Shown here piece by piece: positions 10,769 through 62,914 of a stretch of 64,000 nucleotides of DNA (positions are counted from its first letter, which is position 1; every line of letters starts with the position of its first letter). Source of the stretch: Lachnospiraceae bacterium (GTDB taxonomy: Bacteria > Bacillota_I > Bacilli_A > RFN20 > CAG-449); the NCBI GenBank assembly GCA_963648895.1, contig CAVJGK010000001.1:26745-90744 (forward strand), in the 5' to 3' direction. Both the position numbers and the translations under genes were made by a program. Below the pieces are notes generated by a model. That model made no database searches. It saw only the letters and a list, made by a program, of their open reading frames with translations, and was not told where the DNA came from.

Positions 10769-10770
10769 AT

Positions 10771-11070: not shown

Positions 11071-11071
11071 T

Positions 11072-11347
11072 TTAATTCATCAGCTCCTTCAATACTTGCG
11101 CTAAGTCAGCGCCTTCACAAATAGTATTGTCGAAGTGCTGCACTTGAATGCGAGAGTCTTTATTAAAACTATAAATAGCAAGTTCTAGTTGTGCTTTGGG
11201 ATAAGCATAAAATACTACGTAAAAATTTGCACTATAACCAGCATAGTTAAAACCAAGCTCATGCAAAAGGGTAATCTCTTCTTCTGCCTGATGCTTCATT
11301 TCATCAGTGGGCATCTTTTTTATAAACTCTAGCTCATCTTTATTCAT
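11072..11347 (-). CDS. small LGF-motif family paralog (subtype A1)
   Basis: LLHELGF motif and C-terminal LAQVLKELMN. Confidence 0.5.
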   Translation of the reverse strand: MNKDELEFIKKMPTDEMKHQAEEEITLLHELGFNYAGYSANFYVVFYAYPKAQLELAIYSFNKDSRIQVQHFDNTICEGADLAQVLKELMN

Positions 11348-20308: not shown

Positions 20309-20893
20309 TTAAATTCTACCGGGGACAAATCCCTCTGGACAAATCTCTTTGCGCACATTTATAGTTCCATTATTAAACCATTTTAATTTGTGCATTGTTT
20401 CTTTTCTTTTATCTTTCGTCACCTGCGTTTGTTTTTTGCCTAAATTAGCAGCACGTAGTTTTTCTTTGGTTTCTTCTGAAACAGATTTTCCTTTATTTCA
20501 TGGAACTTTTCCTTTATGTGCTTCGCTCATTTTCTGTCTTGCTTCTGTAGATCGCTTTTGACCTTTTAAGCTATTATTCATCTTTTCCTGTGTCTCAGCA
20601 GACCTTTTATACTGGACATTTCTTACTTTTTCTTTAAAGTCATTAGTTCTGTAAACAGATGGAAACTTAATATAATCAGGATGTTCAATATTAAGGCTTA
20701 CGCACTCTAACGAGTTATATTCTATCAAATTTCTCTGCCATTTATCTGGAGAACATCGCCATAATAGGTAATTGCATCTAAGGTGCTCTTCTAAAGGTAA
20801 TTCATCCACAAGCTTAAAATAAGATTCTAGCACATCAGGTAATTCCATTTTAGTGATAAGTTGTTTATAACATGCGTTATACTCAAGTTTCAT
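20309..20893 (-). CDS. NUMOD-repeat homing-endonuclease-like protein with one in-frame TGA
   Basis: The track ORF ends with TGA at 20498-20500. In-frame continuation NKGKSVSEETKEKLRAANLGKKQ (another NUMOD3-like repeat) ends in the conserved C-terminal motif WFNNGTINVRKEICPEGFVPGRI and TAA. Confidence 0.5.
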
Positions 20894-22048
20894 TTATACT
20901 TTCTCCCATACATATATTTTATTACCTGCGCCATAAATCTTGCTCACTGCTTCTTCAGCATATTCTGAAACAATATCTTTATTAGGTAGCATATACCATA
21001 CATTAGGTTCTGTATAACCTACAAGGCGCATTCCTAATACTTCATATTCATGCCCAGCAAACTTATTAAAATCGCAGTAAGCAGTTATTTTATTCGGGCG
21101 ATGCTGTTGTATAAAGTAATTAAACAACTTAGACATTCCACCAGTGACCAAAATGCTATTCTTAGTAGTGTTTTGTGTCAGTTCCCAATCATCATTAACT
21201 TTGCCAAAAGACATTGTCTGAACTAATTCATTATTATAAAATAACCCATAAGTAATCAGCACGCCTGGAATTTCTCGTATTGCGCATTCACTTGCATCTA
21301 TACGCGTTTCCACTTTATTTAAAACAGCACGCAATAACGACTTTATAGTTTCCCTAGTAGCATCATCATTTCATTCCCATTCATAAATATGAATTAAATG
21401 TATTCCTTTATTAGCACATTTTATACTTTTATTTAAGTGATAATACTTATCTGTTCCTGCAATATCGCTATGATAGTACTGCCCATTAAACTCTATTGCA
21501 ACTTGGGCACCAGGAATATAAATATCTAATTCTTGTGGCGGAATAACATTTCTTACATGTGTTAAAACTTCCCCATCATAAATACTTTGTACATAGTTAA
21601 ATATTTCTTGTTCCGGATGTGAACCAGTATGAGTAATTCCGTTGTTAAGATCATCAAAAGAATCCTTTAGTCTTTCGTAATCGTCCTTAGAAATATAAGC
21701 AATATTGCCATTTTTATATGTTTTGATATTCCGATTATTAAGTGTAGCAGCTAATCTACATCGCTTTATCTTATCATTATAATCTACAATATCTTTTAGT
21801 ACTACTATATCAGGATTACTGTGTAATTCATTTATTATTGCCTGCTTATTCTTCTCGGTTGTTATTTTATTAAATAGCGTAGCACAGTTGTGTGTATCAT
21901 AAAATTGTTTTACTTTAGGTAAAGAATCTATAGGAAATTCTCCATTAGCGTTAGGTGCTATTTCCAAGTATTCAAAAATATTCTTTACTGTTCCTTTTGA
22001 TATTCTGAGAGCATCAGAAAACCACCTAACCTTTTTATAAACCATCAT
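20894..22048 (-). CDS. DUF559/Vsr-like (PD-(D/E)XK) endonuclease-domain protein, two track ORFs fused through an in-frame TGA
   Basis: ELDIYIPGAQVAIEFNGQYYH motif. The track ORF ends at TGA 21371-21373. The next 12 codons NDDATRETIKSL run straight into ORF 20894-21334 in the same frame. Confidence 0.5.
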
Positions 22049-40116: not shown

Positions 40117-41028
40117 TTATTTTTGGTATTTTCCTGAATCAAAGAGTCCCCTACGAATAGTTGTCCTACTGCAATTAAAATGATCTGCGCATTGGTACAG
40201 ACTTTGTGTATGACTTAAACCTGTAGCACGACCTTCTTGGTACATGGCATAAACGTCCACCCAAGGTAGTTCTAGTTTGCGATGAATATCAGAATTTGGA
40301 CTGCCTATTTGATACTGTACTAGGCGTTTAAAAATCACTGTTCTAGAACAACTAAAATGTTTTGCACATTGGTCCACTGCCTGTGTATGACTTAAAGTGG
40401 CGCGGTACTCTAAATAGTATTTGCACAGGTCATCTTTGTCAATTTTAATTGACACTGAGCGCTTTCTCTTCTTACTTTGATAAATATTATATTCTCGTAA
40501 AAAAGACAACATTGTATATGAGCTGCAATTAAAATGTTTTGCGCTTAATTCTAATGCCTCTAAGTGTGAATACGAAAGGCGCAATTGGGTGTAATACTCT
40601 TCTAATTCTTCCTTGCTTATGTGTTTTTGGCGCGCCCTATGCAATTCATCACCGGGTACCCTGATACCATTTGCTTTAAGCTGCTTTTGTATAACGCTAA
40701 CGCTACAATTGAAATAGTCTGCACACTCAGTATACACTTCACATTTAGACCTGGACTGCCGTAAATCTATATACATAGTAGCTAGCTTTGACACATCTAT
40801 GCTACACTTTCTGCTGTTTGTTAGGTCAAGTTCTTTCAGGCGCGAATAAATTGTACTTACACTGCAATTAAAATGATCTGCACATTGTTGTTGGGTCCAG
40901 CGACACTCACAGTACAAATATTGAAGTTCTTCACTTGAAATATTTAATAAACTTGGTTTACAAGTATCACCACCTGGAGTTAAATTAAATCCCTTATCAC
41001 TATCCATTGTATGAAATTCAGCGATCAA
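40117..41028 (-). CDS. protein with five tandem HTH repeats (xCAxHFNCSxxTIxxxL)
   Basis: QCADHFNCSVSTIYSRL, ECADYFNCSVSVIQKQL, AKHFNCSSYTMLSFL, CAKHFSCSRTVIFKRL and QCADHFNCSRTTIRRGL repeats. Confidence 0.5.
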   Translation of the reverse strand: MIAEFHTMDSDKGFNLTPGGDTCKPSLLNISSEELQYLYCECRWTQQQCADHFNCSVSTIYSRLKELDLTNSRKCSIDVSKLATMYIDLRQSRSKCEVYTECADYFNCSVSVIQKQLKANGIRVPGDELHRARQKHISKEELEEYYTQLRLSYSHLEALELSAKHFNCSSYTMLSFLREYNIYQSKKRKRSVSIKIDKDDLCKYYLEYRATLSHTQAVDQCAKHFSCSRTVIFKRLVQYQIGSPNSDIHRKLELPWVDVYAMYQEGRATGLSHTQSLYQCADHFNCSRTTIRRGLFDSGKYQK

Positions 41029-48036: not shown

Positions 48037-49020
48037 CTACTTTCCTAAATAATATTTTGGTCCATAAATTAAACTATCAACACCTATTTCATACTCTTTA
48101 TTACATATTAATTTAATACTGTCAGGATTAAACATTGAATAAGTATCTTGAGCTAACTTTAGTGCTTCCTCTTCAGTTTTACCCTTTTTAATTGCCTTCT
48201 CATAAGTTTCATGAATCTTAGATTGGTTCTCATCTTCATACCAACCATCACATACAATATAAGGGTCGACTGACCATGGAGTAAAAGAACATTTTTCATT
48301 TGCTGCTTGTACCATTAATTCGCAAAGACGCTCTGCAACTCTTTCTTGATTCTGTAGAGGTGCTTCACAGAAAACTTCATCATGGATGGTAACCAGCAAT
48401 CTAGCACCTAACTGTTTTAATTCTTCGTCATTATTAATTAAAATCATTGCAGATTTTGTCATTGTAGCAGCAGAAGATTGAATTCTAGCATTTAATGTTT
48501 GTCTTAATGCTCTACTAATAAACGCACTATTATTACGTACTTTTAATCCATCTGTCTCTGCACGCTCCTGAACACTTTGCCTTGCTATTTTAGTTTTAGC
48601 TTTTTCGAGTTCTTTTGTATATTTTTTAATCTTTACTTCTAACTGCTTATCTTGATGCTCCCGTGCGCCAATAAAAGGATTAAAATAATCTTTCTTAACT
48701 TTTTCTTCTATTGTATATAGGGGTAATTGCGCATCAGGTAAATGTCTTCTTCTACCATAGATATTAGTGACGTATCCAAGTTTCTTTGCCATTTCCTGTG
48801 AATCTTTTGTAAATTTATCAACTGCTTTAAATCCATCATAATACGCATCAATAATAGAATTTGCTTCAGTTACAGGTAATTGCATTCTTTTTGCAAGTGT
48901 TGGTGCAGACATTCCATAGTTAACACCGAGGAATACCTGTTTCGCTTTTGATCTTCGCTCCTTACCTTCTTGTGATTGTATTACTGTAACATTTGAATGT
49001 CGTTTTACTTTTATTTGCAT
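48037..49020 (-). CDS. DNA polymerase I (family A), C-terminal segment (motifs B and C)
   Basis: RSKAKQVFLGVNYGMS (motif B, R..K...FG..YG) and LLVTIHDEVFCEAP (motif C). Confidence 0.7.
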   Translation of the reverse strand: MQIKVKRHSNVTVIQSQEGKERRSKAKQVFLGVNYGMSAPTLAKRMQLPVTEANSIIDAYYDGFKAVDKFTKDSQEMAKKLGYVTNIYGRRRHLPDAQLPLYTIEEKVKKDYFNPFIGAREHQDKQLEVKIKKYTKELEKAKTKIARQSVQERAETDGLKVRNNSAFISRALRQTLNARIQSSAATMTKSAMILINNDEELKQLGARLLVTIHDEVFCEAPLQNQERVAERLCELMVQAANEKCSFTPWSVDPYIVCDGWYEDENQSKIHETYEKAIKKGKTEEEALKLAQDTYSMFNPDSIKLICNKEYEIGVDSLIYGPKYYLGK

Positions 49021-49039
49021 ACATATCCTACTTTCTTCT

Positions 49040-50089
49040 TCATATACAATTATACACTGTTTTATCCGTATTTAACACATTAATTATCTTTTTGCCCACA
49101 TTTCTATAATGAATATTATCTAAACCTAAACTTAAGATATATTTAGCAGCTTGATTAACAGAAACAAATTCCATCTGGTCGTTATTTTCATCTATCATAA
49201 TAATATGATATCCATGAATGCCTGCTACAACGCTTTTAATTTTCTTCATACTATCTTCAGAATACTCTTTTGATTTCTTGGTACTTTCTTCAATCTGTCA
49301 AGTATATCCATTGAGTAGTAATTCGTTTTTAGATGCTCTCTTTAAAGTTTCAGGACTTGTTTTTATACACTGACACACGCTTTTAATTGAATTAAATTCT
49401 AGTACCTCTGTTTCGTTGTATGCTTTAACCTTAAGACTATTCTTTGATGCAATACTATTTTTAGTTTCTATTGAATGAGACTTACCATAAAATCCATTCT
49501 TTTTGCCTATTCTCTGCTTACTTATTTCAGACAGTTTAGCTCTAGTTTCTTTAGAAGGACAATAACCTTTTTTACCCTCACTAATATGTTGACACCAAGA
49601 CTTATAAGAATCTGATTCCTTATCAATATCCTTATAATAAGCTAATAATGACTGTTTTTGTTTATTTCTACATTCTTCTGTGGAAGTAACCTGCAATATC
49701 ATTTCTCTATATTCTAAATAATATTGTTCAATGTTATCTAATAAGCTAATAAATTCTTCATATTCAGGTAAGTTATTGAGCTGTTTATTTCTTAAAATGT
49801 ATTGAATACTAGCATAGTTCTTGCCTTTATATTGGTCGGTACTGCACCTACAAAGAAAATAATGAGCTAAAATATGGTCTTTAATGCTAAGATTTACTAA
49901 ATTATTAGCTGAATTATCGACTGCTAAGTTATTAAGTTTATAATAAAATCTAGGTACAATATGATGCTTTTGAGTTTTATTAACACAATGCTCTGTATAT
50001 CTATTATTTTCTATTAGATTTGCATATTTGTCGAGTCATTCATTATCTATTACTAAACCAATAGTGATTAATTTTTCTTTTGTCTGCAT
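49040..50089 (-). CDS. HNH homing endonuclease with NUMOD repeats and C-terminal HTH, containing two in-frame TGA codons
   Basis: MQTKEKLITIGLVIDNE[TGA]LDKYANLIENNRYTEHCVNKTQKHHIVPRFYY...NLVNLSIKDHILAH (HNH). NUMOD-like SKETRAKLSEISKQRIGKKNGFYGKSHSIETKNSIASKNS. The TGA at 49298-49300 links in frame to QIEESTKKSKEYSEDSMKKIKS...FVSVNQAAKYILSLG (IENR-type HTH). Confidence 0.55.
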
Positions 50090-50490
50090 TTCTCTATTTC
50101 AAATTCTACATTTGCTGCTTTGCCTGGATGCACCAATGCGATAAAATAAGGTTCATCCTCAACTAATATCTCATCATTTACTGATAAATCCTTTGCATAT
50201 TTCCAACCATTAGGAGTTTCTAATTCATCATCAAGATTTACTGTAAAAGCATGGTCTATGATATCAACAGCAGCATCACAAGGTTCTATCGACTCTTTAA
50301 CCGGTTTAAATTCTAGATTATCCTCATACTCATTGTGATAACATTTTGATGCAATCTTTGCGTACAAGTCTTGTTGTTGCTGATATGCTTCCTGCATATC
50401 TTTATCTTGCGCAAAAGCGCACAAAGAGCGGGGTTCCTGACCACTAAAATCCCCACCAATAATCGCATATCGTTTTCTTACTCTAATCAT
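50068..50490 (-). CDS. DNA polymerase I (family A), middle segment (motif A)
   Basis: IIGGDFSGQEPRSLCAFAQDKD matches the polA motif A DYSQIELR...HLS.D. The C-terminal 60 aa are Hint-like (see findings). Confidence 0.6.
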   Translation of the reverse strand: MIRVRKRYAIIGGDFSGQEPRSLCAFAQDKDMQEAYQQQQDLYAKIASKCYHNEYEDNLEFKPVKESIEPCDAAVDIIDHAFTVNLDDELETPNGWKYAKDLSVNDEILVEDEPYFIALVHPGKAANVEFEIEKCRQKKN

Positions 50491-51118
50491 CTACTTTCTC
50501 CCATTTAATATAATCTATTATAACATCTTTATATGTTGGTTGCGAACCCTTTAAAAATTGTTTTATCTTTCTTTGATACATTGCTTCATTGAATGGATAA
50601 CCTGGTTTTAATGGACGTGTATTATACCACCAAATAGCGCCTTCTCTGATAGAATCGAAATAATATTCTTTTCCTTCGTAATAGCATTTAACTTTTATAG
50701 ACCTTGTAGCATATTGTTGATTTTGACCGCATTCACCATTTTCTCTAATCTTGGTACCATAATAGTTTAATCCTTGAGCTTTATTATCTTCTAAACGTTT
50801 TTCTCTAGAATCTTTTATCTTTTGTTTATGCTCTTCGCTAAAACCATTTTCTTTTCTATAATCCGATAAACTTTGCGAAATTTTATCTCGTACCTCTTGC
50901 GAAGCAACTTTTGCATCATGTTTTGCTTTCCACACAGGGTCCCACATAGGATTAACTGGATTATCACTCAAATATCCATAAGCAACTTTGAGCTTAAAAT
51001 TATCTGGGTATTTTTCACAAAGTAATCTATGCGCTTCTACGTGTTCTTCATGAGTCAACCTAATAATATTTTTATCTTTTTGCCGAGATTTACCTTCACC
51101 ACCCATACATTTCGGCAC
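50483..51118 (-). CDS. HNH homing endonuclease within polA intervening sequence 1
   Basis: IIRLTHEEHVEAHRL (HNH) and a NUMOD-like SEEHKQKIKDSREKR. Confidence 0.5.
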   Translation of the reverse strand: MPKCMGGEGKSRQKDKNIIRLTHEEHVEAHRLLCEKYPDNFKLKVAYGYLSDNPVNPMWDPVWKAKHDAKVASQEVRDKISQSLSDYRKENGFSEEHKQKIKDSREKRLEDNKAQGLNYYGTKIRENGECGQNQQYATRSIKVKCYYEGKEYYFDSIREGAIWWYNTRPLKPGYPFNEAMYQRKIKQFLKGSQPTYKDVIIDYIKWEKVDD

Positions 51119-51209
51119 TATATGGTGTCCTTCCCAGTTACATTTTAAATTAGCTCATTGTCCCCGTTCTCTTTTAATACTATTTATGTATTCATCATAA
51201 TTCATTAAG

Positions 51210-52916
51210 TTAAACCTCCAACAAATAATAATTATCTTGCTTTATTATATTTTTAATAGTCTCAACATTATCTTCTGATTCCAGCTTATCACCAACTTTT
51301 AATTGATTTACAAATACCCAACCATTATCAGTTAGTACTTCTTCTGTATCCTCAATCTTATAAGTAGAATCTACGCTTTCTACTTGACGCTCATCTATAG
51401 TTGGTTCAAAAATCATTCTAACTGTTTTATCATGAGATGGAATATTTTGTAAGTTAGGATTTGATGACGCAAATCTTCCTGTAACAGTACCAATAGGGTC
51501 AAATCTACCATGTACTCTGTGATTTTTATCTACGCCCGCAGGAATAGCATCAATGAATGTAGTAATAAGAATGTCTACCGCTCTTTTTTCTTTAATTAAT
51601 TCACAAACTTTAATATGCTCTTCTTCAGCTAATTGGTCTAAGATTTCTTTACCTGTTCCGCGTGGTTTATCCTTATTAACACTTGGTGCTTTAAGAATGT
51701 CATATAAAAATATTGCTAATTGAGTATCTGAATTTAAATCAATAGGATCAGATAATTTTTCTGCGGGAGTTTTACTTGCCCACTTATACCTCTTCTTTAA
51801 TTTTTGGTCATAATAAGGGTATTGCTTTTCAATCTCTGCTTCTGATAATTTAGTCTTCTTTGGAGCATACACGGGTTGTCTAGTGTTTGCTTCAGGAGTT
51901 AACTTCCAATCATCAATTAATTTTTGATTTGCTTTTACTTCTTCATCAATCTCTCTTTGTTTCTCATCAGACTTTGCATGATAAATAGTAGACATCTTAT
52001 CTGCATACTCTGTGTTAACATAAACACCTGCTGTTTCCATATCGACTACAACATCTAAAATTGGGATTTCTACTTTATATAATAAATCTAATAGTTCTTT
52101 ATTTTCAGGTCTAGTTAAAATCTCAAATTGATATTCTTGTAATTTAAAAGTATCATAACTATCTGTAGCAGCATATAGTGCAAATAGTTCAGGGTCAAAC
52201 ATAGCATAAGGAAAACCTGCAAATAAATGCTCTATGTCGTATCTTTCTTGCGTTGGATCAATATGTAATCTGTATTGTGCTTTTAAACCTTTAAGCTCAT
52301 TTTCATTTATTAGATGTGCACCTACTTGAGTATCCCAATCAACATGTACTCTTGTTCCAGTTGTTTGCTGAAGAACTTCAATATCAAATATTGCGTTATG
52401 AAATATAGTATAAGTATTACCTAAACGTTTAAGTTGTTCTGCTATTTGTGATTCTGTAAGTTGTCCTTCTACTAAATCACCCATAATAACTTGCTCTTTA
52501 CCTTTTTCATCATATTCAACTGTAAATTTTCTATGATTAACAGGAACATATGCTGCTTTCATGCCTGGAGTATATAAACAAAGACCCATCAATTTACAAT
52601 CTTTAAAAACTTCTAATGTATTATTAGTTTCGGTATCTATTGCAATCTTTCCGTTTTCTAACGCTTTATCAATATACTTTTTATAATCTTCATAAGTTCT
52701 AATTACAATAGTATTTTCGGCATATCTTCCTAAAATCTGATACACTTGTTCCCTAATTAATTGCATCTTATCATAGATAGAAATATAAGAAGATTTTAGT
52801 TTTTGTTGAACTGTTAAATTTTCTAACTTTTTAGGTGCTCTCGCTTTTTTAAGAATAGACTGAGTATCTTCTTCTTTTAAAGTAAATTCTTCACCCCACA
52901 GAGATAATTGTTCCAT
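51210..52916 (-). CDS. DNA polymerase I (family A), N-terminal segment (3'-5' exonuclease plus N-terminal polymerase domain)
   Basis: 568 aa. Conserved SSNPNLQNIPSHDKTVRMIF block just before the expected position of motif A. Ends with a TAA. Confidence 0.7.
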   Translation of the reverse strand: MEQLSLWGEEFTLKEEDTQSILKKARAPKKLENLTVQQKLKSSYISIYDKMQLIREQVYQILGRYAENTIVIRTYEDYKKYIDKALENGKIAIDTETNNTLEVFKDCKLMGLCLYTPGMKAAYVPVNHRKFTVEYDEKGKEQVIMGDLVEGQLTESQIAEQLKRLGNTYTIFHNAIFDIEVLQQTTGTRVHVDWDTQVGAHLINENELKGLKAQYRLHIDPTQERYDIEHLFAGFPYAMFDPELFALYAATDSYDTFKLQEYQFEILTRPENKELLDLLYKVEIPILDVVVDMETAGVYVNTEYADKMSTIYHAKSDEKQREIDEEVKANQKLIDDWKLTPEANTRQPVYAPKKTKLSEAEIEKQYPYYDQKLKKRYKWASKTPAEKLSDPIDLNSDTQLAIFLYDILKAPSVNKDKPRGTGKEILDQLAEEEHIKVCELIKEKRAVDILITTFIDAIPAGVDKNHRVHGRFDPIGTVTGRFASSNPNLQNIPSHDKTVRMIFEPTIDERQVESVDSTYKIEDTEEVLTDNGWVFVNQLKVGDKLESEDNVETIKNIIKQDNYYLLEV

Positions 52917-54872: not shown

Positions 54873-56142
54873 TTACTTGTGGTGCATATTGGTATTCAGC
54901 GGGTTCTTCTGCTTGATATCCTGAATTCAAATCATCTTCATCAGGTATATAATTAAAAATACCTTTATCATAATCAACTTCATAAGAAAGCTCATATTTC
55001 TTTGCACCATCTCTTGCTTTTGCAATATTAAATGTCATAATATTATCTTTCTTACTTATAAATAAAACTTCTGTAGCGTCTTGACCAATTCTATCTGACA
55101 ATGATAAATTTTGAGTTCCTGCCATTCCACCTTCTTCTACTGCAGTTCTATTTTGTTGAGATGCAACAACAATAGGAATATGTTTTTGTACCTGTAAATT
55201 CTTTAACGCTTTACTTATTTCTGCTGCTTGCTCAAATGATTTTGAATAACTTTTAGTACTATCTAATAATGAAATTTGGTCAACAAATAGCATATCTAAC
55301 TCATATTTATCAACAAAAGTTCTTAATGTATCTACTGTTACTTTATCTTCTTTGATCATATCCCGAGTTAAAACAAATAGTTTACCTTTAGAATTTTTTA
55401 AGTTTTCTAAATACATTTTATATTGGTTAGCAATATTCATGCCACCCCGAGAAATGGCAGTGTTAGAAATATGACTAACTAAAGTATCGTAACGACCTGC
55501 AATCTTATTAGCAGTCATTTCACCTTCGTAAAAACCTACTCTTAATCCTTTTTGGACTGCTGCAGTAGCAAATTTAATCATTACTAATGTTTTGCCTATG
55601 CCTGCTCTAGCTGAAATTACAAAATAAGCATTATCCCTGTCAATTCCACCACCAAATGAATTATCTAGCTCTTTAAAACCAGTGCTTACAAAGTGATCTT
55701 CAAAGTTATTACATTTGTCAACATACTCATTATAACGTGAGATATCTTGAAATATATCAACTGCTTCTAAATTCTTTGAAACTGTAATATTAGCGGCAGA
55801 TTTATTTAAAACATTTATTGCTTCATCTGTTTTACCATTAATTAGTAACTCTCTAATTCTATTAAAGGATTTCGCTAACGCATTGGCATTAAATTCTTTA
55901 TAGAGTTCATTTAGCAAATAATCAATAGACTCATCTACTTCGATGACCTCAAATTCAGGAAATACTTTTAAAAATGTTGTTAAATCAGGTAATTGGTTAT
56001 AAGTATTATAATGATTAACTAAAAATTCAAATTCTGCTTTATATTTAGGAAAATAGGCACTTGTTAATCCTTTAGATAATAATGTATTAGTATCTTTTTT
56101 TGCAATGATTCTATTTATTATCTGTAATTGTATTAATGACAT
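54841..56142 (-). CDS. replicative DNA helicase (DnaB-like)
   Basis: Walker A SARAGIGKTLVM, Walker B LFVDQISLL. RecA-like core with an N-terminal DnaB-type domain. Confidence 0.7.
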   Translation of the reverse strand: MSLIQLQIINRIIAKKDTNTLLSKGLTSAYFPKYKAEFEFLVNHYNTYNQLPDLTTFLKVFPEFEVIEVDESIDYLLNELYKEFNANALAKSFNRIRELLINGKTDEAINVLNKSAANITVSKNLEAVDIFQDISRYNEYVDKCNNFEDHFVSTGFKELDNSFGGGIDRDNAYFVISARAGIGKTLVMIKFATAAVQKGLRVGFYEGEMTANKIAGRYDTLVSHISNTAISRGGMNIANQYKMYLENLKNSKGKLFVLTRDMIKEDKVTVDTLRTFVDKYELDMLFVDQISLLDSTKSYSKSFEQAAEISKALKNLQVQKHIPIVVASQQNRTAVEEGGMAGTQNLSLSDRIGQDATEVLFISKKDNIMTFNIAKARDGAKKYELSYEVDYDKGIFNYIPDEDDLNSGYQAEEPAEYQYAPQVSEGSNPYDNY

Positions 56143-56732
56143 CTAGCGTCTCCTCCTTTGATTTCTTTAGAAATAGAATAGTTAATTACTCTAGAAAAAA
56201 CTCTAGGGTCTAGAATAGATTGTAATTGTTTTGGAGCAAGATTTGAAGTATAAATACTGCTCTTCACATTACTTGTTCTTTCATCAATCCAATAGTATAA
56301 GCTATTCATTTCATAGGGAGATATATCCTTAACACCTAAGTCATCAAAAACTACTAAGTTTGCATGTAAAATTTTCTGCTCAGTATCATGCACTTCATCT
56401 AATAAAGAAGGATTAGAAATAGCTAATTTTTTCTTATTTAAAAAATTACTAACATTAATAAATAATCCTGGACATGCGTTAGCAAACATTACTTTACTAT
56501 TTAAATTAATATATTCTAGTAGAATTTTAGTTGCCCAACTAGTTTTACCATTGCCTGTATGTGCTGAATAAATCAACAAGTTATCTCCATTTGTTACAAA
56601 TTGATTTACGTTTAATTTTATTTGATTTAGTTCTGCAAAAGTTTGTTCATCTTCTGAAGAAGGACTTAATCTATTTTCACTTTGATACCTTTTAGGAATA
56701 TTTGAATTACGTAAATATGTGTCAATTAGCAT
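56133..56732 (-). CDS. DnaC/IstB-like helicase-loader ATPase
   Basis: Walker A HTGNGKTSWA, Walker B LVVFDDLG. Confidence 0.5.
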   Translation of the reverse strand: MLIDTYLRNSNIPKRYQSENRLSPSSEDEQTFAELNQIKLNVNQFVTNGDNLLIYSAHTGNGKTSWATKILLEYINLNSKVMFANACPGLFINVSNFLNKKKLAISNPSLLDEVHDTEQKILHANLVVFDDLGVKDISPYEMNSLYYWIDERTSNVKSSIYTSNLAPKQLQSILDPRVFSRVINYSISKEIKGGDARCH

Positions 56733-56934
56733 AATAACCCTCTTTCTTTCACACTAATATATTAGCTTATTTATGTCAGAAAGTAAACTATCTTTTTAAA
56801 TTTTACCTAAGAAACTATCATAAAACTCCATCATAAGTAAATAAAGGTACCAAATTTGAACGTTTACACTTTTTAAGTATATTTATACTCTTTTTACAAA
56901 TTCTCGAATACGGTACCTTAAAACACTTCTGGGA

Positions 56935-57810
56935 CTAATACACTATATCTAATACCTTTGAAGGGTCTCGTTTTTCTGAAACAATACCAAATTCATTACT
57001 ACATCTAGTAACTGTAGTTGTTTTATTTGCTTGTTGTAAATACTCGTCCATCTTATCTCCAAATAAAATAGAGGGTCTTAATAAGCTTACTGTAGTATCT
57101 CCACTTGATAAACGTCTAGGATTAATTCCCCATTCATTATATTTATAATCTATTATCTTAATAAAGTCATTTTCAGTGAATCCTTCTTTTAGTTTAGAAT
57201 AAATCACCTTCTGCAACCCTTTGGAATTTCGGTAGGCAGTTCCGCACACCTCATTGAAGTGCCCTACTACGCGCCCCAGAATTTCCGCATTATTTTTATT
57301 TTGTGCATATCTATTGATATGCACTTTATTATCTAAAGTATCTATTACCTTAGATGTATCAAGCGCATGCGCTTCTATATTATCTTCTTTAGTATTATTA
57401 GATATATATTCTATATTATTGTGTAAACTATCTTTACATGCATGTAAACTTTCTTTACATTGATGTAAAGTATCTTTACGCTCTTGTAAACTTTCTTTAC
57501 ACTCTTCTGTATCATCTTTTTTAGTATTTTTAGTAGGATCATCTGCAAAAACAATATAATATTTGTTATTAGGATATCCTTTTTCTTTTCTAATTAGTCC
57601 CATTTCACAAAGTTGTGCTAAGCAACCACTGACAGATTGTCTAGTACTTTGTGTCCATTCTGCTAAATAAGCGATACTTCCATGATAATTACTTTCTCTA
57701 TCTTGACAAAAACCATAAATAATAGAGTAAATTAAAAGCATATTACCTTTTAGTTGTAATTTGTTTAATACCCAACCAGGTATTACCACATAAGAATCAT
57801 CTCTAATCAT
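56935..57810 (-). CDS. phage replisome organizer / replication initiator with internal iterons
   Basis: N-terminal winged-helix-like LAEWTQSTRQSVSGCLAQLCEMGLIRKE. The central protein repeats KESLH/KDSLH correspond to a DNA iteron array. Confidence 0.5.
   Translation of the reverse strand: MIRDDSYVVIPGWVLNKLQLKGNMLLIYSIIYGFCQDRESNYHGSIAYLAEWTQSTRQSVSGCLAQLCEMGLIRKEKGYPNNKYYIVFADDPTKNTKKDDTEECKESLQERKDTLHQCKESLHACKDSLHNNIEYISNNTKEDNIEAHALDTSKVIDTLDNKVHINRYAQNKNNAEILGRVVGHFNEVCGTAYRNSKGLQKVIYSKLKEGFTENDFIKIIDYKYNEWGINPRRLSSGDTTVSLLRPSILFGDKMDEYLQQANKTTTVTRCSNEFGIVSEKRDPSKVLDIVY
57423..57501. repeat. four 17-bp inverted-repeat iterons TGTAAAnnnnnTTTACA at about 21-bp spacing (candidate origin of replication)
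   Basis: Copies at 57423-57439, 57443-57459, 57464-57480 and 57485-57501, all inside the replisome-organizer gene. Confidence 0.6.
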
Positions 57811-58366
57811 TGTTCATAAACTCCTTTGTTCTTAGATTATATAATAATTTTTTTAATTGTACATTTAAATATTTTGAAGACATATTAGCGATATCATTTA
57901 GTGTTTTAATAAATACTTGTTTATCAGCGCCATAATCATGTTTATAGTACTCATAGTCTCTTAGTGAAACATCTCTAATAAAAGCAATTACCTGCTTCTT
58001 ATCATAGGTTCTACTATTAGAATAACAGATAGCGTCTAGCATTATTCCTTCTAGATAAGATTCTCCAGTAAAATAAGATGAAATAAAATAATACAACTTA
58101 TCTTGTTTTTCAGTTTCGTGGATATCTACTAACCAACCTTCCCCTGCATCATTATAATCATCTCTATATCCATCTAGACTTAAAGTATTAAAATTAGATT
58201 GTCTTCTATAAGCATTATATCTAGATAGCATTACGTTTTTTTGTCTTTTTAGCGCCATGTGCATTGCTTTATCTGGACCCTTAGGATCATTATATAAAGA
58301 ACTTTTAGGATCTTCCCAAACTCTTTTATCCAAGGTATATTTCATAGCGTCCATTACTACGTCCAT
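57803..58366 (-). CDS. hypothetical protein
   Basis: 187 aa ORF. Promoter at 58601-58629. Confidence 0.4.
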   Translation of the reverse strand: MDVVMDAMKYTLDKRVWEDPKSSLYNDPKGPDKAMHMALKRQKNVMLSRYNAYRRQSNFNTLSLDGYRDDYNDAGEGWLVDIHETEKQDKLYYFISSYFTGESYLEGIMLDAICYSNSRTYDKKQVIAFIRDVSLRDYEYYKHDYGADKQVFIKTLNDIANMSSKYLNVQLKKLLYNLRTKEFMNND

Positions 58367-58635
58367 ACATTCTTCAAAACTTACATGCCTATTACATTGG
58401 TTATATATTCTTCCAGAATGTCCCCAGAAACGACATACAATCGCTGCTATTCAGTTCTCATATTCTGCGTCATTTTCATGCTCTATACAATTAAAAAAGA
58501 GTTCACTATTGGAAAAGTCTTTCCAGTGAACTGCATCCGCATATTGTCTATAGTGTTGATAATTTAATTCTAACATAAAATTTCTCCTTTTACATTAGAT
58601 ATTATAGCACAACAAAAAGGGGTTGTAAACTAAAT

Positions 58636-60303
58636 TTACATTACCCCTAATAAATATTTTAATTCTTCTGTTTGGTCTGTATCACCATCTACTAGATAAT
58701 CAGACATACCTTTTTTAGTATCAATTAGGTATTGAACTCTTTCATCTATAGTTCCTTTAGCAATTAGATTATAAATAATAACAGGTTTTTCTGCCGATAT
58801 TCTCCAGATTCTGCTAAAACTTTGTTCATAATCCGACCAAGTCCAAGGGGTATCTAAGAATATTGCGTAAGAAGCAGCAGTTAATGTAAATCCCGTACCT
58901 GTTTTTTGTGCAGTACCTAATAATATAGGATAATTAGGATCATTTTGAAATAGATCCCTATTACGTGCTGCTACCGCATCTGCTAAATCACCTGATGATA
59001 CTAAAGGTTTGTATTCCGCTAACTCTTTTTCTAACTCTCTTAAAGGTTCTTTAAATTGTGAGAAGATGATAACTTTTTCACCTGAGTCTACAATTTCTGC
59101 GACTAAATCTTTTGCTCTTTCTAGCTTACAAGAAATTCCTTGCGTACTTGATAATACAGAAGGACAAGTTGCTGCTTGCCTTAATCTAGTAATTAAACCC
59201 AACATGCTTGTTGTTTTAATATTAACTCTATCTGCTTCTTCAACTACACCATTAGCAATATTTTCATAAAACTTAGCTTGATCATTCTCCATCTCCAGAT
59301 ATTCAGGAATAATTGTTAGCGGTGGAAGTTTAATCATACTCTTAGGTCTTCTTAGCATGAATTCCTGAAGAGTTTCTCTTAAAGTATTCATATTCTTAAA
59401 AGACACTATCTGGTTATGACCAAATTTCTTTTCAAATACACAATAATAATTTTTAAAATTAGTTAGTGTACCTTTCTCTGCCCCTACAAATTTTAAAGGT
59501 AAAAATGAATCTAACGGGTTATTAATTAATAATGTACCAGTTAATCCCCAATGATAAGAACCAACCTTAGCTAATTTTAGTAAGTTCTTACCACGTTGAG
59601 AAGTAACAGATTTACATTTATGAACTTCGTCTACACAAATGATATCAAACTTATTTTGAGATTCTCTTATTGCATCAACAACTAAATCACTTGTTAACAT
59701 TTCTACATTCATGATAACAAAAAATTCTTTAATTGGTTGATATAATTGCTCTGCTCTTTCCGCTATTGAAGCATATTTAACAGTACCTTTTGAATTAACT
59801 TGCTTACCGATAACGACACAATCTAAATCTGAGTGTTTCTTTATTTCATTTTCCCAGTTCGCTTTTAGTGAATTAATTCCGCAAATAATCAAGCAATGTT
59901 CCATATTTAGTTGTGCCTTTAGTTCTTCTGCGGCATAAGTAGTCATTAAAGTCTTTCCAAGCCCCGGTGGATCGCCTAAGATACCACTAGGATGATTTAT
60001 TAACCACGATATTCCATCTTTTTGATAATCGAATGGTTTTGTTTTATACTCTAGAGAACTTTCCAATAGGGTACCTTTATTTGCGTCTAGGAACGACATT
60101 TGAATATCATCTAGATAAGTTAATTTATCTACTAAATTAGCTAATTCTCCAAGAGGTAATTCCCACACTAAGTCTTTCTTATGCCAAATAGCATTTCCAG
60201 TATCTTTAACTGCGGTAACTATTAATGGATTATAATCAAAAGAAACAAATAAAGAAGTTTTTCCTATACTTTTCTTAGCAATATCTTCTTTAATAGTAAT
60301 CAT
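58636..60303 (-). CDS. SNF2/Rad54-family helicase
   Basis: GLGKTLMTT (motif I), VDEVHKCK (DEAH), C-terminal helicase domain with IIFSQF and QKTGTGFTLT. Confidence 0.65.
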   Translation of the reverse strand: MITIKEDIAKKSIGKTSLFVSFDYNPLIVTAVKDTGNAIWHKKDLVWELPLGELANLVDKLTYLDDIQMSFLDANKGTLLESSLEYKTKPFDYQKDGISWLINHPSGILGDPPGLGKTLMTTYAAEELKAQLNMEHCLIICGINSLKANWENEIKKHSDLDCVVIGKQVNSKGTVKYASIAERAEQLYQPIKEFFVIMNVEMLTSDLVVDAIRESQNKFDIICVDEVHKCKSVTSQRGKNLLKLAKVGSYHWGLTGTLLINNPLDSFLPLKFVGAEKGTLTNFKNYYCVFEKKFGHNQIVSFKNMNTLRETLQEFMLRRPKSMIKLPPLTIIPEYLEMENDQAKFYENIANGVVEEADRVNIKTTSMLGLITRLRQAATCPSVLSSTQGISCKLERAKDLVAEIVDSGEKVIIFSQFKEPLRELEKELAEYKPLVSSGDLADAVAARNRDLFQNDPNYPILLGTAQKTGTGFTLTAASYAIFLDTPWTWSDYEQSFSRIWRISAEKPVIIYNLIAKGTIDERVQYLIDTKKGMSDYLVDGDTDQTEELKYLLGVM

Positions 60304-60697: not shown

Positions 60698-62914
60698 TTA
60701 AATTTCATGCTTCCAACCAGATGATGTTTTTACCCACACATCAGTAACACGCTTCCAACCCGCATCCACTTTAATATATGCTGATTGAATGTCTACCCAT
60801 GCAGGGACATCTGTAGAAGATTTTTGTATTTTTATTTTCTTACCTGTTTTTACCCAAACACCATAATACTTAGGAATATTATCTTTGTTATCCCAAGGCA
60901 AATAGCGCTCTTTATCAGTAATAGAAACAGTATAAGAAGGAATTAAATTATTAGTAACACTTGCTTCAATATCATCTATTGACTCGTATACACCATAAGT
61001 ATTCCAGAAATCATTTGGTAATTGGGAAGTCCAACCTACGAATGAATGATCTTCCCATACTGGCGCATTCATTTTCCAAACAGAACTACTGGTAATCATT
61101 GAAGCGTCATACCACTGTCTGTCTGGATTTTTCCAAACACCATTATAATAAATAAAATCTACATAGTGCGGAACTTCTGACCAAGAAGCAACTAATTCAT
61201 ACTTAGTTTGTCCAGTAGCATAGAATGCATCATCTAAAGTTGCGCCTGGCGCATATGATAATCCATTGATTGTCCATGCTTTAAATAATCTACTATTATC
61301 ATTATAAGTAGGAGTTATAGTAGGCAAAGTTGCTGCAGTGCCATAAGTCTTACTAATAGAATCTATCTTAGTTGGTGTTATTGCACTTGATGTTGCATTT
61401 AAATTAAATGAAACTGTGTATGTAACAGGTGCCCATATCGCAATTAAAGTAGAATCTGCTTTAAACTTAGTCGTTGATGTAACCTTTATTCCATTATATT
61501 GCCATTCTTTAAATGTATAACCTGTTCTTGTAGGTGTTGGTAAGGTTCCTATCGCAGTTTCTGTTATTGAGCTTCCACTTTGTGCCCATTGAGCAATAAA
61601 TGAACCTGGTCTAACTACCCCGCTTCCACCAATTTGAACACCAGTATCTCCCCCAGAAGTGGTGTACCAATTACTTTTTGCAGTATAAGACGTTTTAGAA
61701 TTACAAGAAATAATTGAGTCCGAACAAGCAGAACCTCCATCACTATTATAATGAATAGTAACATTTGTTTTACCTGAAACATCATAAGTTAATTTATATA
61801 AACTTGGTCAAGAGGTGGAATTATTTTCTAGAACATTACTAATTTCCGCCTTAGTTGGTCTTGTTTGATCTGTGCCAGCACTAAATGTCATAATTGGATA
61901 CCATTTAGCATATAAGGTCATATTAGAATCAGTAGAAACAGAAGTAACTTTTGTTCCGTCCTCTTTATACCAACCAGCAAATTTATAACCATCTCTTGTT
62001 GGTGTTGGAAAACCTGAAAAAGATGCTTTAGATGTTACATCAGTAGTAGAACCGCCATTAGACCAGTTTGCCCAAACTTCTTGATTTGCAATACTAACTG
62101 TATCTCCTGCATTCTTACCATTATTCCAACCAGTAAAATTATATACAGTTGTAGTTCTAGTACTCGCTGAACCGGTTAAAGAACTTACCGAACTTCCACC
62201 ATTTGAATTAAAATATAAATAAACAGTTTTAGTTCCAGTAGAGGTCTCATTAATTGAAGAACTTGAGACACCTGGGCAAGTTACAGTTTTTCCGGTCCAT
62301 CCTGTGTAAGTTGATGTTCCAGAAACAGAACTTCTAGACGTTTTAAACGTCATTGTCATTTTATTACTGTCTGTAAAAGGTGATATAAGAGAAACTGTTG
62401 GGGTGCCGATTGTCATTGTGCCACTAGATGATGTGACTCCTTTATACATAGTTACATTGCCTGTCCAACTTTCAGTTGTTTTAGCACCTAGGGTAAATGT
62501 GTAAGAGTAGTAGGCATCACCTAGACCTCATTCTTGTTTTAAATCATTATAGCTACGAATACCAATATACCCGGATGTATAGGCATTACCCCCCTCAGAG
62601 GTTCCTCTTCTAAGTGTTATCGACGGTATTACCATTCGCAAGTCATACGCAAACGAGGCGCTACTATTCTTAGCAAGACATATATAGACGGTTACTGTAG
62701 TATTACCCGATCCATCACTTTGTGGGGAACACCTAACAGCTAATTGTGGTTGAATATAGCTGGGATTTGACACTTTTCCTGTTCCACCATACTCTGAAAA
62801 GGAAATGGTACAGTTATTATAAGCGAGGAACTGATCTCCATTAGTGCATGTTCATGATGTACTGCCACCACCATAGACTGATGAGTAATTGCCATTAGGA
62901 TAATAAACTGCCAT
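60698..62914 (-). CDS. receptor-binding/tail-fibre protein with Flg_new-type (Y.F.GW) repeats, containing three in-frame TGA codons
   Basis: AGGAG RBS 8 nt upstream of ATG at 62914. TGA at 62852-62854, 62528-62530 and 61808-61810 join track ORFs 62528-62773, 61808-62449 and 60698-61327 into one 738-codon frame. Repeats GFPTPTRDGYKFAGWYKEDGTKVTS, GTLPTPTRTGYTFKEWQYNGIKVTS and YNFTGWNNGKNAGDTVS. Confidence 0.55.

What the first reader, a model, noticed from the sequence alone, without database searches (positions are those of the whole stretch)
57423..57501. Iteron array inside the replisome-organizer gene: candidate origin of replication
**Observation.** Four copies of the 17-bp inverted repeat TGTAAA-n5-TTTACA start at 57423, 57443, 57464 and 57485. 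The spacing of about 21 bp equals two helical turns. They lie within the coding sequence of the DnaD/organizer-like initiator and produce the KESLH/KDSLH peptide repeats.

**Interpretation.** Origins embedded as iterons in the initiator gene are known for lambda O and SPP1 G38P-type systems. The genes for the loader, DnaB-like helicase and primase follow immediately.
Basis: partly seen in the sequence, partly recalled or inferred. Interest (0 to 1): 0.55.

Follow-up and report, generated by a model that had tools for sequence, protein, structure and literature searches.

The report
Replication origin inside phage initiator gene
Four evenly spaced palindromic DNA repeats followed by an easily melted AT-rich stretch sit inside the replication-initiator gene of an uncultured phage, which is the classic layout of a lambda-type replication origin; this is a well-supported but ordinary find.

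Summary
Four copies of TGTAAA-N5-TTTACA start at 57422, 57443, 57464 and 57485, exactly 21 bp apart. The first start is 57422, not 57423, and the third copy ends in TTTACG. They lie in the linker-coding part of a 291-aa initiator gene (56935-57810, minus strand). This protein has an N-terminal winged helix, a low-confidence linker and a C-terminal Phg_2220_C domain.

The conservation acts on the DNA, not the peptide:
- All 13 relatives (40-68% protein identity) keep 2-4 copies of GTAAA-N5-TTTAC.
- The copies occur in two reading frames (xKESLH or VNKVY).
- Synonymous-codon identity in the repeat columns is 0.94, against 0.55 expected.
- The least stable 40-mer of every gene directly follows the last repeat. 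In the window this is 57376-57415, the second least stable 40-mer in 64 kb.

DnaC-like loader, DnaB-like helicase, primase and SSB genes follow. The layout matches ori-lambda, pSK41 Rep and TP901-1 Rep, so I file it as a new member of a known kind.

Two further findings:
- One more copy of the palindrome overlaps the -35 element of the operon's own promoter (58624-58640). This suggests autoregulation.
- The same repeat-plus-AT cassette recurs in at least 31 diverse viral contigs.

Binding and initiation remain untested.

The parts
57422..57438 (.). Iteron 1, TGTAAACTATCTTTACA on the + strand. On the coding strand it reads TGTAAAGATAGTTTACA and encodes CKDSLH.
57443..57459 (.). Iteron 2, TGTAAACTTTCTTTACA (encodes CKESLH)
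57464..57480 (.). Iteron 3, TGTAAAGTATCTTTACG. The 15-nt core is perfect and the outer base differs. It encodes RKDTLH.
57485..57501 (.). Iteron 4, TGTAAACTTTCTTTACA (encodes CKESLQ)
57376..57421 (.). AT-rich candidate DNA-unwinding element next to the array. It lies downstream of the repeats in the coding direction and encodes NNIEYISNNTKEDNI.
   Evidence: 57376-57415 is the second least stable 40-mer of the 64-kb window (z = 3.1); the equivalent tract is the least stable 40-mer of the gene in all 13 relatives; an AAT-rich tract follows the arrays in other viral contigs.
57361..57374 (.). Perfect 14-nt palindrome AAGCGCATGCGCTT bordering the AT-rich tract. Its role is unknown and the encoded peptide here is not conserved in relatives. 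The GC-rich segment 57240-57280 (59% GC) lies about 80 nt further on (lower coordinates).
56935..57810 (-). Initiator (replisome-organizer) gene, 291 aa. The N-terminal winged-helix domain is aa ~16-90 (57541-57765). The low-confidence linker is aa 91-165 (57316-57540) and holds the iterons and the AT tract. The C-terminal Phg_2220_C domain is aa 181-259.
58624..58640 (-). Isolated fifth palindrome (minus strand TGTAAATTTAGTTTACA). Its TTTACA arm is the -35 hexamer of a sigma-70-type promoter: -35 at 58629-58624, a 17-nt spacer, TG-extended TATAAT at 58606-58601. It is a candidate operator for autoregulation.
57803..58576 (-). First gene of the operon, a 257-codon frame with one in-frame TGA at codon 42 (58451-58453). 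Its stop overlaps the initiator start by 8 nt (ATGATTAG). It is conserved upstream of the initiator in relatives. Function unknown.
56733..56934 (-). 200-bp gap between the initiator and loader genes. It holds a promoter-like site: TTTACT at 56787-56782, a 17-nt spacer, then TAATAT. It also holds a partial repeat (GTAAACTATCTTT, 56783-56795, + strand).
56133..56732 (-). DnaC/IstB-like helicase loader, 199 aa
54841..56142 (-). DnaB-like replicative helicase, 433 aa
53904..54872 (-). Primase (CHC2 zinc finger plus Toprim), 322 aa
52998..53834 (-). SSB-like protein, 278 aa (phrog_14578)
57504..57533 (.). Copy of a 30-nt direct repeat (87% identical to 57372-57401). The two copies flank the iteron array and are specific to this window. 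They are probably a trace of array expansion.

Best explanation
The array is the initiator-binding part of a lambda-type replication origin embedded in the initiator's own gene.

**Proposed mechanism.**
1. Early transcription from the promoter at 58629-58601 produces a 257-codon protein of unknown function. It also produces the translationally coupled 291-aa initiator.
2. Dimers of the initiator's N-terminal winged-helix domain bind the four dyad-symmetric 15-17-bp sites. The 21-bp (two-turn) phasing puts the dimers on one face of the helix, so they build a bent or wrapped nucleoprotein complex.
3. The strain opens the adjacent AT-rich tract (57376-57421).
4. The C-terminal Phg_2220_C domain recruits the DnaC-like loader with the DnaB-like helicase. 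The phage primase, SSB and family-A polymerase follow.
5. The single palindrome overlapping the -35 hexamer of the operon's own promoter would let accumulated initiator repress its own synthesis.

**Shown.**
- The sequence anatomy.
- DNA-level purifying selection on the repeats.
- The conserved order of repeats then AT tract.
- The domain layout of the protein.
- The gene neighbourhood.

**Inferred.** Who binds the repeats, where melting occurs, how the helicase is recruited, and whether autoregulation happens.
For: **1. Non-random, phased array.** There are 5 matches against 0.95 expected, and 0 of 100 shuffles reach 5. The period is exactly 21.

**2. DNA-level constraint.**
- In 13 relatives (40-68% protein identity) the core GTAAA-N5-TTTAC is kept in 2-4 copies, spaced 21-24 or 33-34 nt.
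- The copies lie in two reading frames (xK[EDQ]SLH against VNKVY/VKKVN).
- The residue before Lys is C, R, G or S, always from an NGT codon.
- Synonymous-codon identity is 0.941 observed against 0.545 expected in the iteron columns. For the whole linker it is 0.888 against 0.583.
- Ser is AGT in 32 of 33 iteron codons against 56 of 164 elsewhere. Lys is AAA in 29 of 29. Leu is TTA in 26 of 27.

**3. Adjacent unwinding element.** The tract 57376-57415 is the second least stable 40-mer of 64 kb. The equivalent position is the least stable 40-mer of the gene in all 13 relatives.

**4. Protein layout.**
- The AlphaFold model shows an N-domain (blocks covering aa 21-90) with pLDDT about 75-83.
- The linker (aa 91-165) has pLDDT about 30.
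- The C-domain has pLDDT about 65-84.
- Foldseek matches the N-domain to MarR-type winged helices and to plasmid initiator N-terminal domains 4pql, 4pt7 and 5kbj.
- Phg_2220_C scores 55.8 bits against a cutoff of 27.
- phrog_428 'replication initiation protein' scores E 2.5e-25.

**5. Generality.**
- More distant homologues carry different repeats in the same place followed by AT-rich DNA. These are L009 and L010, Lactobacillus phage phiPYB5 and C. difficile phage AR1074-1.
- An unbiased IMG/VR scan found the same cassette in 31 contigs of 26-50% GC. Most copies are in wHTH-initiator linkers and some are intergenic.

**6. Specificity of the fifth site.**
- Of about 25 TAG-TTTAC(A/T)-17-TATAAT promoters in the window, only the one heading the initiator operon has GTAAA exactly 5 nt upstream.
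- In relatives, the promoters between the SNF2 helicase gene and the initiator gene carry it; one nearby promoter lacks it and one relative has none. Promoters further downstream do not.

**7. Precedent.** See PMC7466680, PMC6316719, PMC8965321 and PMC5703833.
Against: - There are no binding, footprint or initiation data.
- GC skew is monotonic across the window because every gene is on one strand, so it gives no independent origin signal.
- Only 64 kb of a contig of about 117 kb is visible. A second or principal origin elsewhere cannot be excluded; SPP1 has two.
- The arms of the repeat equal the phage's general -35 hexamer (TTTACA). Their complement (TGTAAA) is common in the leaders of its promoters. 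A transcription-related binder is therefore conceivable.
- Pairs of the same palindrome also occur in contexts that are not origins. Examples are an Empedobacter chromosome between divergent non-replication genes, and L035 and L037.
- The AlphaFold alignment is shallow (11 sequences) and the Foldseek E-values are only 0.02-0.06.
Confidence: 0.75

Rival explanations
1. The palindromes are operators for a transcription regulator. This could be the initiator acting only as a repressor, or another phage or host winged-helix protein. The intragenic array would then be a regulatory cluster (roadblock, titration site or looping partner of the promoter site), and the origin would lie elsewhere.
For: - A single copy overlaps the -35 hexamer of the operon promoter.
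- The repeat arms equal the -35 hexamer and the leader motif TGTAAA of about 25 promoters.
- Pairs of the same palindrome sit in promoter-like, non-replication contexts in Empedobacter, L035 and L037.
Against: - The array is always coupled to a strongly AT-rich tract, even in genomes of 40-50% GC.
- It always sits in or beside initiator genes.
- Intergenic versions keep the AT tract (L028).
- Distant homologues have different repeats in the same layout.
- None of the intragenic repeats is followed by a -10 hexamer.
Confidence: 0.12
2. The repeat is selected at the protein level, as a heptad (KESLHxC) repeat forming a coiled-coil or flexible spacer in the initiator. On this view the DNA palindromy is incidental.
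For: - The period is 7 aa.
- AlphaFold draws a helix over aa 108-138, though with pLDDT about 30.
- There is a weak coiled-coil-type Pfam hit, Tmemb_cc2, E 0.0066.
Against: - The same DNA unit is encoded in two reading frames, even within one gene (CKQSLH alternating with VNKVY).
- The position before Lys varies among C, R, G and S but is always NGT.
- Synonymous identity is 0.94 against 0.55 expected.
- Copy number varies from 2 to 5.
- Intergenic copies exist.
Confidence: 0.03
3. The array is a cis site for another DNA transaction. Candidates are a packaging (pac) recognition site, a partition centromere or a site-specific recombination site.
For: Phased palindromic repeats are also typical of pac sites bound by small terminase and of centromeres bound by ParB or ribbon-helix-helix proteins (established knowledge, not tested here).
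Against: - The array lies in the replication module, next to no terminase, partition or recombinase gene within 6 kb.
- It is tied to initiator genes in more than 40 loci.
- An AT-rich unwinding tract is not a feature of pac or par sites.
Confidence: 0.05

Closest known systems
Bacteriophage lambda ori within gene O (and Stx-phage variants)
   Same: - Four phased repeats, each an imperfect inverted repeat bound by initiator dimers.
- They lie in the middle of the initiator gene.
- They are followed by an AT-rich tract.
- Copy number varies between relatives and changes the protein length (4 against 6 iterons, 13 extra residues) (PMC7466680).
- Here there are 4 dyad repeats with 21-bp phasing, an AT tract next to them, 2-5 copies in relatives and an indel-rich linker.
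   Different: - There is no Pfam-level homology to lambda O, only weak PHROG 'O-like' hits (E 4e-7 to 4e-4).
- The repeat is 15-17 bp rather than 19 bp and is unrelated in sequence.
- The partner is a DnaC/IstB-type ATPase loader plus the phage's own DnaB-like helicase, primase and polymerase, not lambda P plus host DnaB.
- One extra copy sits at the operon promoter.
pSK41 / RepA_N plasmid initiators (origin inside rep)
   Same: - The N-terminal winged-helix domain binds four Rep boxes placed centrally in rep.
[quoted passage not shown]
- The C-terminal domain contacts host replication proteins (PMC5703833).
- Foldseek places the N-domain of the model near 4pql, 4pt7 and 5kbj.
   Different: - Pfam RepA_N (PF06970) is not detected.
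- The Foldseek E-values are only 0.03-0.06.
- This is a phage, not a plasmid.
- The C-domain is Phg_2220_C.
Replisome organizers of SPP1 (G38P, oriL) and lactococcal P335 phages (TP901-1 ORF13, Tuc2009 Rep2009)
   Same: - The organizer binds repeats inside its own gene, and these serve as ori (PMC6316719, PMC8965321).
- The repeats are followed by AT-rich DNA. In TP901-1 the repeats are at 4048-4087 and the AT-rich repeats at 4100-4155 of L021.
- Loader and helicase genes lie downstream.
- SPP1 has a second site elsewhere in the genome.
   Different: - TP901-1 Rep is not detectably homologous (BLASTP E 5.8).
- TP901-1 Rep has an HTH_36 plus DnaB_2 architecture instead of Phg_2220_C.
- Their repeats are described as direct repeats, whereas here each unit is itself a palindrome.
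- SPP1 G38P was not compared.
Iteron plasmids with autoregulated Rep (F RepE, pSC101 RepA, pPS10 RepA)
   Same: From established knowledge: the same initiator binds phased repeats at ori and an inverted repeat overlapping its own promoter for autorepression. Here the same palindrome is found at the array and at the -35 hexamer of the operon promoter.
   Different: - No Rep_3 homology was detected.
- In those plasmids monomers bind direct iterons and dimers bind the operator. Here every unit is palindromic.
- Autoregulation here is an inference only.

Membership tests
Origin embedded in the initiator gene (lambda O type) | Three or more phased initiator-binding repeats, each with dyad symmetry | tested here: met
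   There are four 15-17-nt palindromes with a period of exactly 21 nt, and 0 of 100 shuffles reach the count.
Origin embedded in the initiator gene (lambda O type) | Repeats lie in the part of the gene that encodes the linker between the DNA-binding and recruiting domains | tested here: met
   The repeats encode aa 104-130. The winged-helix domain ends near aa 90 and Phg_2220_C starts at aa 181. The linker has pLDDT about 30 and is rich in indels.
Origin embedded in the initiator gene (lambda O type) | AT-rich unwinding tract directly beside the repeats | tested here: met
   The tract 57376-57415 is the second least stable 40-mer of 64 kb. The same position is the least stable 40-mer in all 13 relatives.
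Origin embedded in the initiator gene (lambda O type) | Repeats are conserved as DNA, independently of the encoded peptide | tested here: met
   The unit occurs in two reading frames, and the codon before Lys is always NGT. Synonymous identity is 0.94 against 0.55 expected, and intergenic copies exist.
Origin embedded in the initiator gene (lambda O type) | The initiator binds the repeats and replication starts there | not testable with these tools
   This needs EMSA or footprinting, marker-frequency analysis or a plasmid origin assay.
Lambda O protein family (Pfam Phage_rep_O) | Sequence homology of the initiator to lambda O | tested here: inconclusive
   There is no Pfam hit at E <= 0.01. 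PHROG 'replication initiation O-like' families match at E 4.2e-7, 2.7e-4 and 4.1e-4 over the N-domain and linker.
DnaD-like replisome organizer (Pfam DnaB_2 / DnaD_N) | DnaD N-terminal winged helix and a DnaB_2-type C-terminal domain | tested here: not met
   The window protein has no DnaB_2 or DnaD_N hit. Only phrog_186 'DnaD-like helicase loader' matches, at E 5.6e-8. Sub-threshold DnaD_N hits occur in two related proteins, L019 and L048. TP901-1 Rep, which has DnaB_2, is not similar.
Phg_2220_C phage replication proteins (PF09524 / TIGR02220) | C-terminal conserved domain above the Pfam gathering score | tested here: met
   The score is 55.8 bits against a cutoff of 27, over aa 181-259 and the full profile. 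The TIGR02220 score of 53.3 is below its own cutoff of 66.65.
RepA_N plasmid initiators | RepA_N domain (PF06970), and the fold of its winged helix | tested here: not met
   There is no PF06970 hit. Foldseek similarity to 4pql, 4pt7 and 5kbj reaches only E 0.03-0.06 and TM-score (target-normalised) of about 0.44. This is a resemblance in fold and layout, not membership.
Initiator-loader-helicase replication module | Helicase loader and replicative helicase genes downstream of the initiator | tested here: met
   IstB/DnaC-like loader, DnaB_C helicase, Toprim primase and SSB-like genes follow. The same order holds in relatives L014-L017.

The most novel reading that the evidence does not exclude
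The 15-bp palindrome GTAAA-N5-TTTAC together with an AAT-repeat unwinding tract is a portable, almost invariant origin cassette.
- It is shared by many otherwise unrelated uncultured phages, with genome GC from 26 to 50%.
- Their initiators are divergent and their C-terminal domains differ.
- It would be comparable to the DnaA box as a conserved initiator-DNA code.
- In this phage the cassette is also wired into transcription. Its arms are the phage's own -35 hexamer, and one copy sits on the initiator promoter.
- Initiator and RNA polymerase would therefore compete or cooperate at the same sequence, giving either autoregulation or polymerase-assisted origin opening.
Probability: 0.2. Interest if true: 0.6.

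Novelty: new member of a known kind. Interest (0 to 1): 0.4.

Why it matters
- It gives a precise, testable origin (57376-57501) and a candidate initiator for an uncultured phage lineage of about 117-150 kb that has no close cultured relative.
- Comparative sequence alone separated DNA-level from peptide-level constraint on an intragenic repeat. The tests were alternative reading frames, NGT codons and synonymous-site identity.
- The same repeat-plus-AT cassette can serve as a search pattern to annotate origins and initiators in many metagenomic phage contigs.
- The kind of system (an origin inside the initiator gene) is textbook, so the conceptual gain is small.

Tried and rejected
- **GC skew.** Skew and cumulative skew are monotonic because all genes are on the minus strand, so they are uninformative for the origin.
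- **Cultured relatives.** Megablast against cultured phages found no match.
- **DnaA boxes.** There are 18 sites against 22 expected and none is clustered.
- **Rfam.** No family matches in 55-60 kb.
- **PDB sequence search.** Only spurious low-complexity hits came back.
- **Source contig.** It could not be fetched: the exact-protein look-up found nothing and the cluster carries no name.
- **Internal promoters.** I considered that the repeats are promoters inside the gene. No repeat is followed by a -10 hexamer in any relative, and the + strand TTTACA-17-TACATT site is weak.
- **Homology to TP901-1 Rep.** None was found. The TP901-1 and r1t papers are not held.
- **Literature search for the motif string.** No paper holds it.
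- **Scan of bacterial genomes.** It gave only 4 hits (Spirochaetia and Treponema MAGs, Empedobacter). The one hit examined (Empedobacter) is not in a replication context, so no host could be assigned.
- **Other origin-like arrays in the window.** All other repeats are long coding duplications.
Full report
**1. The observation**

The sequence shows four copies of TGTAAA-N5-TTTACA on the + strand.
- They lie at 57422-57438, 57443-57459, 57464-57480 and 57485-57501.
- The third copy ends in TTTACG.
- Spacing is exactly 21 nt.
Position 57423 is where the 15-nt core GTAAA-N5-TTTAC begins.

The array is not a chance feature. With up to one mismatch the window has 5 matches, against 0.95 expected from dinucleotide shuffles, and 0 of 100 shuffles reach 5. 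Tandem Repeats Finder gives period 21, 3.8 copies and score 104. This is the only short-period array in 64 kb with a score above 50. Every other repeat in the window is a long coding duplication.

The repeats lie in the minus-strand ORF 56935-57810 and encode CKESLQE / RKDTLHQ / CKESLHA / CKDSLHN.

**2. The gene and its neighbours**

The 291-aa product has a Phg_2220_C domain at aa 181-259 (55.8 bits, cutoff 27). It also has weak winged-helix hits at aa 48-76. It matches phrog_428 'replication initiation protein' at E 2.5e-25. Weaker matches are to 'DnaD-like helicase loader' and to 'replication initiation O-like' families.

An AlphaFold model built on 11 homologues shows three parts:
- an N-domain (blocks covering aa 21-90) with pLDDT about 75-83;
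- a linker (aa 91-165) with pLDDT about 30;
- a helical C-domain (aa 166-260) with pLDDT about 65-84.

Foldseek against the PDB aligns the N-domain with MarR-type winged helices. It also aligns it with the N-terminal domains of plasmid initiators 4pql, 4pt7 and 5kbj, though only at E 0.02-0.06. The repeats therefore fall in the interdomain linker.

On the same strand downstream lie, in order:
- a 200-bp gap;
- a DnaC/IstB-like loader;
- a DnaB-like helicase;
- a zinc-finger/Toprim primase;
- an SSB-like protein;
- a family-A polymerase.

**3. Is the constraint on DNA or on peptide?**

Eleven homologous proteins (37-65% BLASTP identity to the query) all carry K[EDQ]SL[HQP] repeats, in 2 to 5 copies. 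I fetched DNA for 13 non-identical relatives.

Every one has 2-4 copies of GTAAA-N5-TTTAC in the linker, spaced 21-24 or 33-34 nt (about two or three helical turns). Four lines of evidence place the constraint on the DNA:
- **Variable residue, fixed codon type.** The residue before Lys varies among C, R, G and S, but the codon is always NGT. This keeps the G of GTAAA.
- **Two reading frames.** Several copies are read in the other frame and encode VNKVY, VNKIY or VKKVN instead of xKESLH.
- **Synonymous-codon identity.** I measured it among pairs with the same residue. It is 0.941 in the iteron columns and 0.888 in the whole linker. The expectations from the same amino acids elsewhere in the gene are 0.545 and 0.583.
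- **Codon choice.** In the repeats Ser is AGT in 32 of 33 codons, against 56 of 164 outside. Lys is AAA in 29 of 29. Leu is TTA in 26 of 27.

This excludes a purely peptide-level explanation.

**4. The adjacent AT-rich tract**

I computed a nearest-neighbour stability profile. The segment 57376-57415, which abuts the array, is the second least stable 40-mer of the whole window (z = 3.1), although it is coding.

In all 13 relatives the least stable 40-mer of the initiator gene starts within about 20 nt after the last repeat. It encodes an NNIxNN-type stretch.

In the window, two further features follow toward lower coordinates:
- A perfect 14-nt palindrome (57361-57374) directly follows the AT tract.
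- A segment of 59% GC (57240-57280) lies about 80 nt further on.

The encoded peptide around the palindrome is not conserved in relatives, and I give neither feature a role.

**5. Generality**

More distant homologues have different repeats in the same place.

| Locus | Relation to the window protein | Repeats | What follows |
|---|---|---|---|
| L009, L010 | N-domain 43-46% identical | 22-nt units with TGCAC-N7/8-GTGCA | AT-rich DNA |
| Lactobacillus phage phiPYB5 | 26.5% identical | 3.9 units of 23 nt with GTGAAG-N4-CTTCAC | Least stable 40-mer of the gene |
| C. difficile phage AR1074-1 | 25.8% identical | Three units at 22-23 nt | AT tract |
| Bacillus phage vB_BpsM-61 | 21.2% identical | Palindromic repeats upstream of the gene | AT-rich DNA |

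An unbiased IMG/VR scan for two adjacent units of the window's motif returned 31 contigs with locus GC of 26-50%.
- They hold 2-5 units spaced 20-24 or 32-35 nt.
- The units are nearly always followed by an AAT-rich tract.
- Most arrays lie in the linker of ORFs of 230-370 aa. These ORFs have an HTH_36/MarR-like N-domain and differing C-domains.
- The same DNA unit often alternates between two frames within one gene, as CKQSLH and VNKVY.
- The N-domain and linker of those proteins are remotely homologous to the window family. hhalign gives 96.9% probability and E 1.6e-10. Part of that score comes from the repeat-encoded peptide.
- Two arrays are intergenic but keep the AT tract (L028, L034).

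The repeats and the AT tract therefore travel together with the winged-helix domain, as an origin-initiator module would.

**6. The fifth copy and the promoters**

The only other perfect core site in 64 kb is at 58624-58640. On the minus strand it reads TGTAAATTTAGTTTACA. Its TTTACA arm is the -35 hexamer of the best sigma-70-type promoter in the region, with a 17-nt spacer and a TG-extended TATAAT at 58606-58601.

That promoter heads the operon, which consists of a 257-codon gene followed by the initiator. The two overlap by 8 nt.

The window has about 25 promoters of the form TAG-TTTAC(A/T)-17-TATAAT on the minus strand, often followed by TGTAAA before the ribosome-binding site. Only this one has GTAAA exactly 5 nt upstream of TTTAC.

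In relatives the picture is as follows:
- Most promoters between the SNF2 helicase gene and the initiator gene carry the full palindrome, with a conserved spacer (T/A/C)TTAG. One such promoter in L006 has a 4-nt spacer instead.
- Promoters further downstream do not carry it.
- One relative, L014, lacks it.

The simplest reading is an operator for the protein that binds the array, which would give autoregulation as in iteron plasmids. This is inference only.

The coincidence of the repeat arms with the general -35 hexamer is real. It keeps a transcription-related rival alive.

**7. Checks that gave nothing**

- GC skew is uninformative.
- There is no DnaA-box cluster.
- There is no Rfam family.
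- There is no PDB sequence relative.
- There is no close cultured phage.
- No paper holds the motif string.
- The scan of bacterial genomes gave only four hits. The Empedobacter hit lies between divergent non-replication genes. The palindrome is therefore not exclusive to origins.

**8. Comparison with known systems**

| System | Layout | Source |
|---|---|---|
| Lambda ori | In the middle of gene O. Four 19-bp imperfect inverted repeats bound by O dimers, next to an AT-rich tract. Stx phages have six iterons and 13 extra residues. | PMC7466680 |
| SPP1 G38P | Binds direct repeats next to an unwinding element inside gene 38. A second origin lies elsewhere. | PMC6316719 |
| TP901-1 ORF13 and Tuc2009 Rep2009 | Bind repeats inside their own genes, and these act as ori. 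| PMC8965321 |
| pSK41 Rep | Its winged-helix N-domain binds four Rep boxes centrally in rep. The linker encoded by the ori is dispensable. | PMC5703833 |

The window's locus works like these.

By sequence it is a member only of the Phg_2220_C family:
- The Pfam lambda-O, RepA_N and DnaB_2 models are not hit.
- TP901-1 Rep is not similar (BLASTP E 5.8). It has the same layout, however, with repeats at 4048-4087 and AT-rich repeats at 4100-4155 of L021.

**9. Verdict**

The origin interpretation is supported by strong comparative evidence but remains experimentally untested (confidence 0.75).
- It is a new member of a known kind.
- Two modest additions are the operator-like copy at the operon promoter and the wide recurrence of the same repeat-plus-AT cassette in uncultured phages.
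- Interest is 0.4.

Noticed in passing
window 57803-58576 (-), codon 42 = 58451-58453; L015 2238-3008; L011 352-1125: - The gene upstream of the initiator is one 257-codon frame broken by a single in-frame TGA. A relative (L011) has TGG (Trp) at that position.
- The L015 homologue has two in-frame TGAs, both aligned to Trp, and its public gene call reads through them.
- TGA is the rarest stop in the window: 6 of 90 minus-strand ORFs, against TAA 63 and TAG 21.
- Reading TGA as sense fuses several ORFs, for example 60698-62914 into 738 aa with 3 TGAs, as well as 20894-22048, 20309-20893 and 5906-6901.
- This suggests TGA=Trp recoding in this phage clade or its host.
   Followed up: partly
window, minus strand, about 25 sites (e.g. 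60666, 58629, 53931, 46342, 37396, 22081, 16990, 2842): The phage has a very regular promoter consensus: (T)TAG-TTTAC(A/T), 17 nt, TATAAT, about 5 nt, TGTAAA, then the AGGAG ribosome-binding site. It often lies directly after a terminator hairpin. The -35 hexamer and the leader TGTAAA are reverse complements of each other, and they are the two arms of the iteron.
   Followed up: partly
window 48037-52916 (-): The family-A DNA polymerase is in at least three pieces.
- 51210-52916 holds the exonuclease domain and the start of the polymerase domain.
- 50068-50490 holds the DFSGQEPR motif.
- 48037-49020 holds the C-terminal motifs.
- The pieces are separated by inserted ORFs (50483-51118 and 49298-49702) that look like homing-endonuclease-type insertions. 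Their identity was not checked.
   Followed up: no
window 56733-56934: An unusually long (200-bp) non-coding gap separates the initiator and loader genes. It is also 200 bp in the closest relatives (L011-L013) but only about 50-90 bp in L014-L017. It holds a promoter-like site (TTTACT-17-TAATAT), a partial repeat and a 28-nt imperfect inverted repeat (56832-56859 / 56904-56931).
   Followed up: partly
window 57372-57401 and 57504-57533: A 30-nt direct repeat (87% identical) flanks the iteron array on both sides. It is not present in the relatives examined and may be a trace of unequal recombination that expanded the array.
   Followed up: partly
window 8235-8928; 9751-11302; 40162-40898: There are long coding-type repeats: a 333-nt tandem duplication (76% identical), five units of about 61 nt spaced about 300 nt apart, and units spaced 177 nt apart. 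They probably reflect paralogous small genes or repeat domains.
   Followed up: no
L056 3634-3668 (Empedobacter tilapiae NZ_SRPE01000007.1): Two copies of GTAAACAAAGTTTAC, 20 nt apart, lie between divergent chromosomal genes that are not replication genes. The palindrome also occurs as a probable operator outside phage origins.
   Followed up: partly
L025 780-1271: The initiator homologue in this viral contig of 26% GC is split by an in-frame stop between two pieces, and both pieces match the same profile. This may be another case of stop-codon recoding.
   Followed up: no
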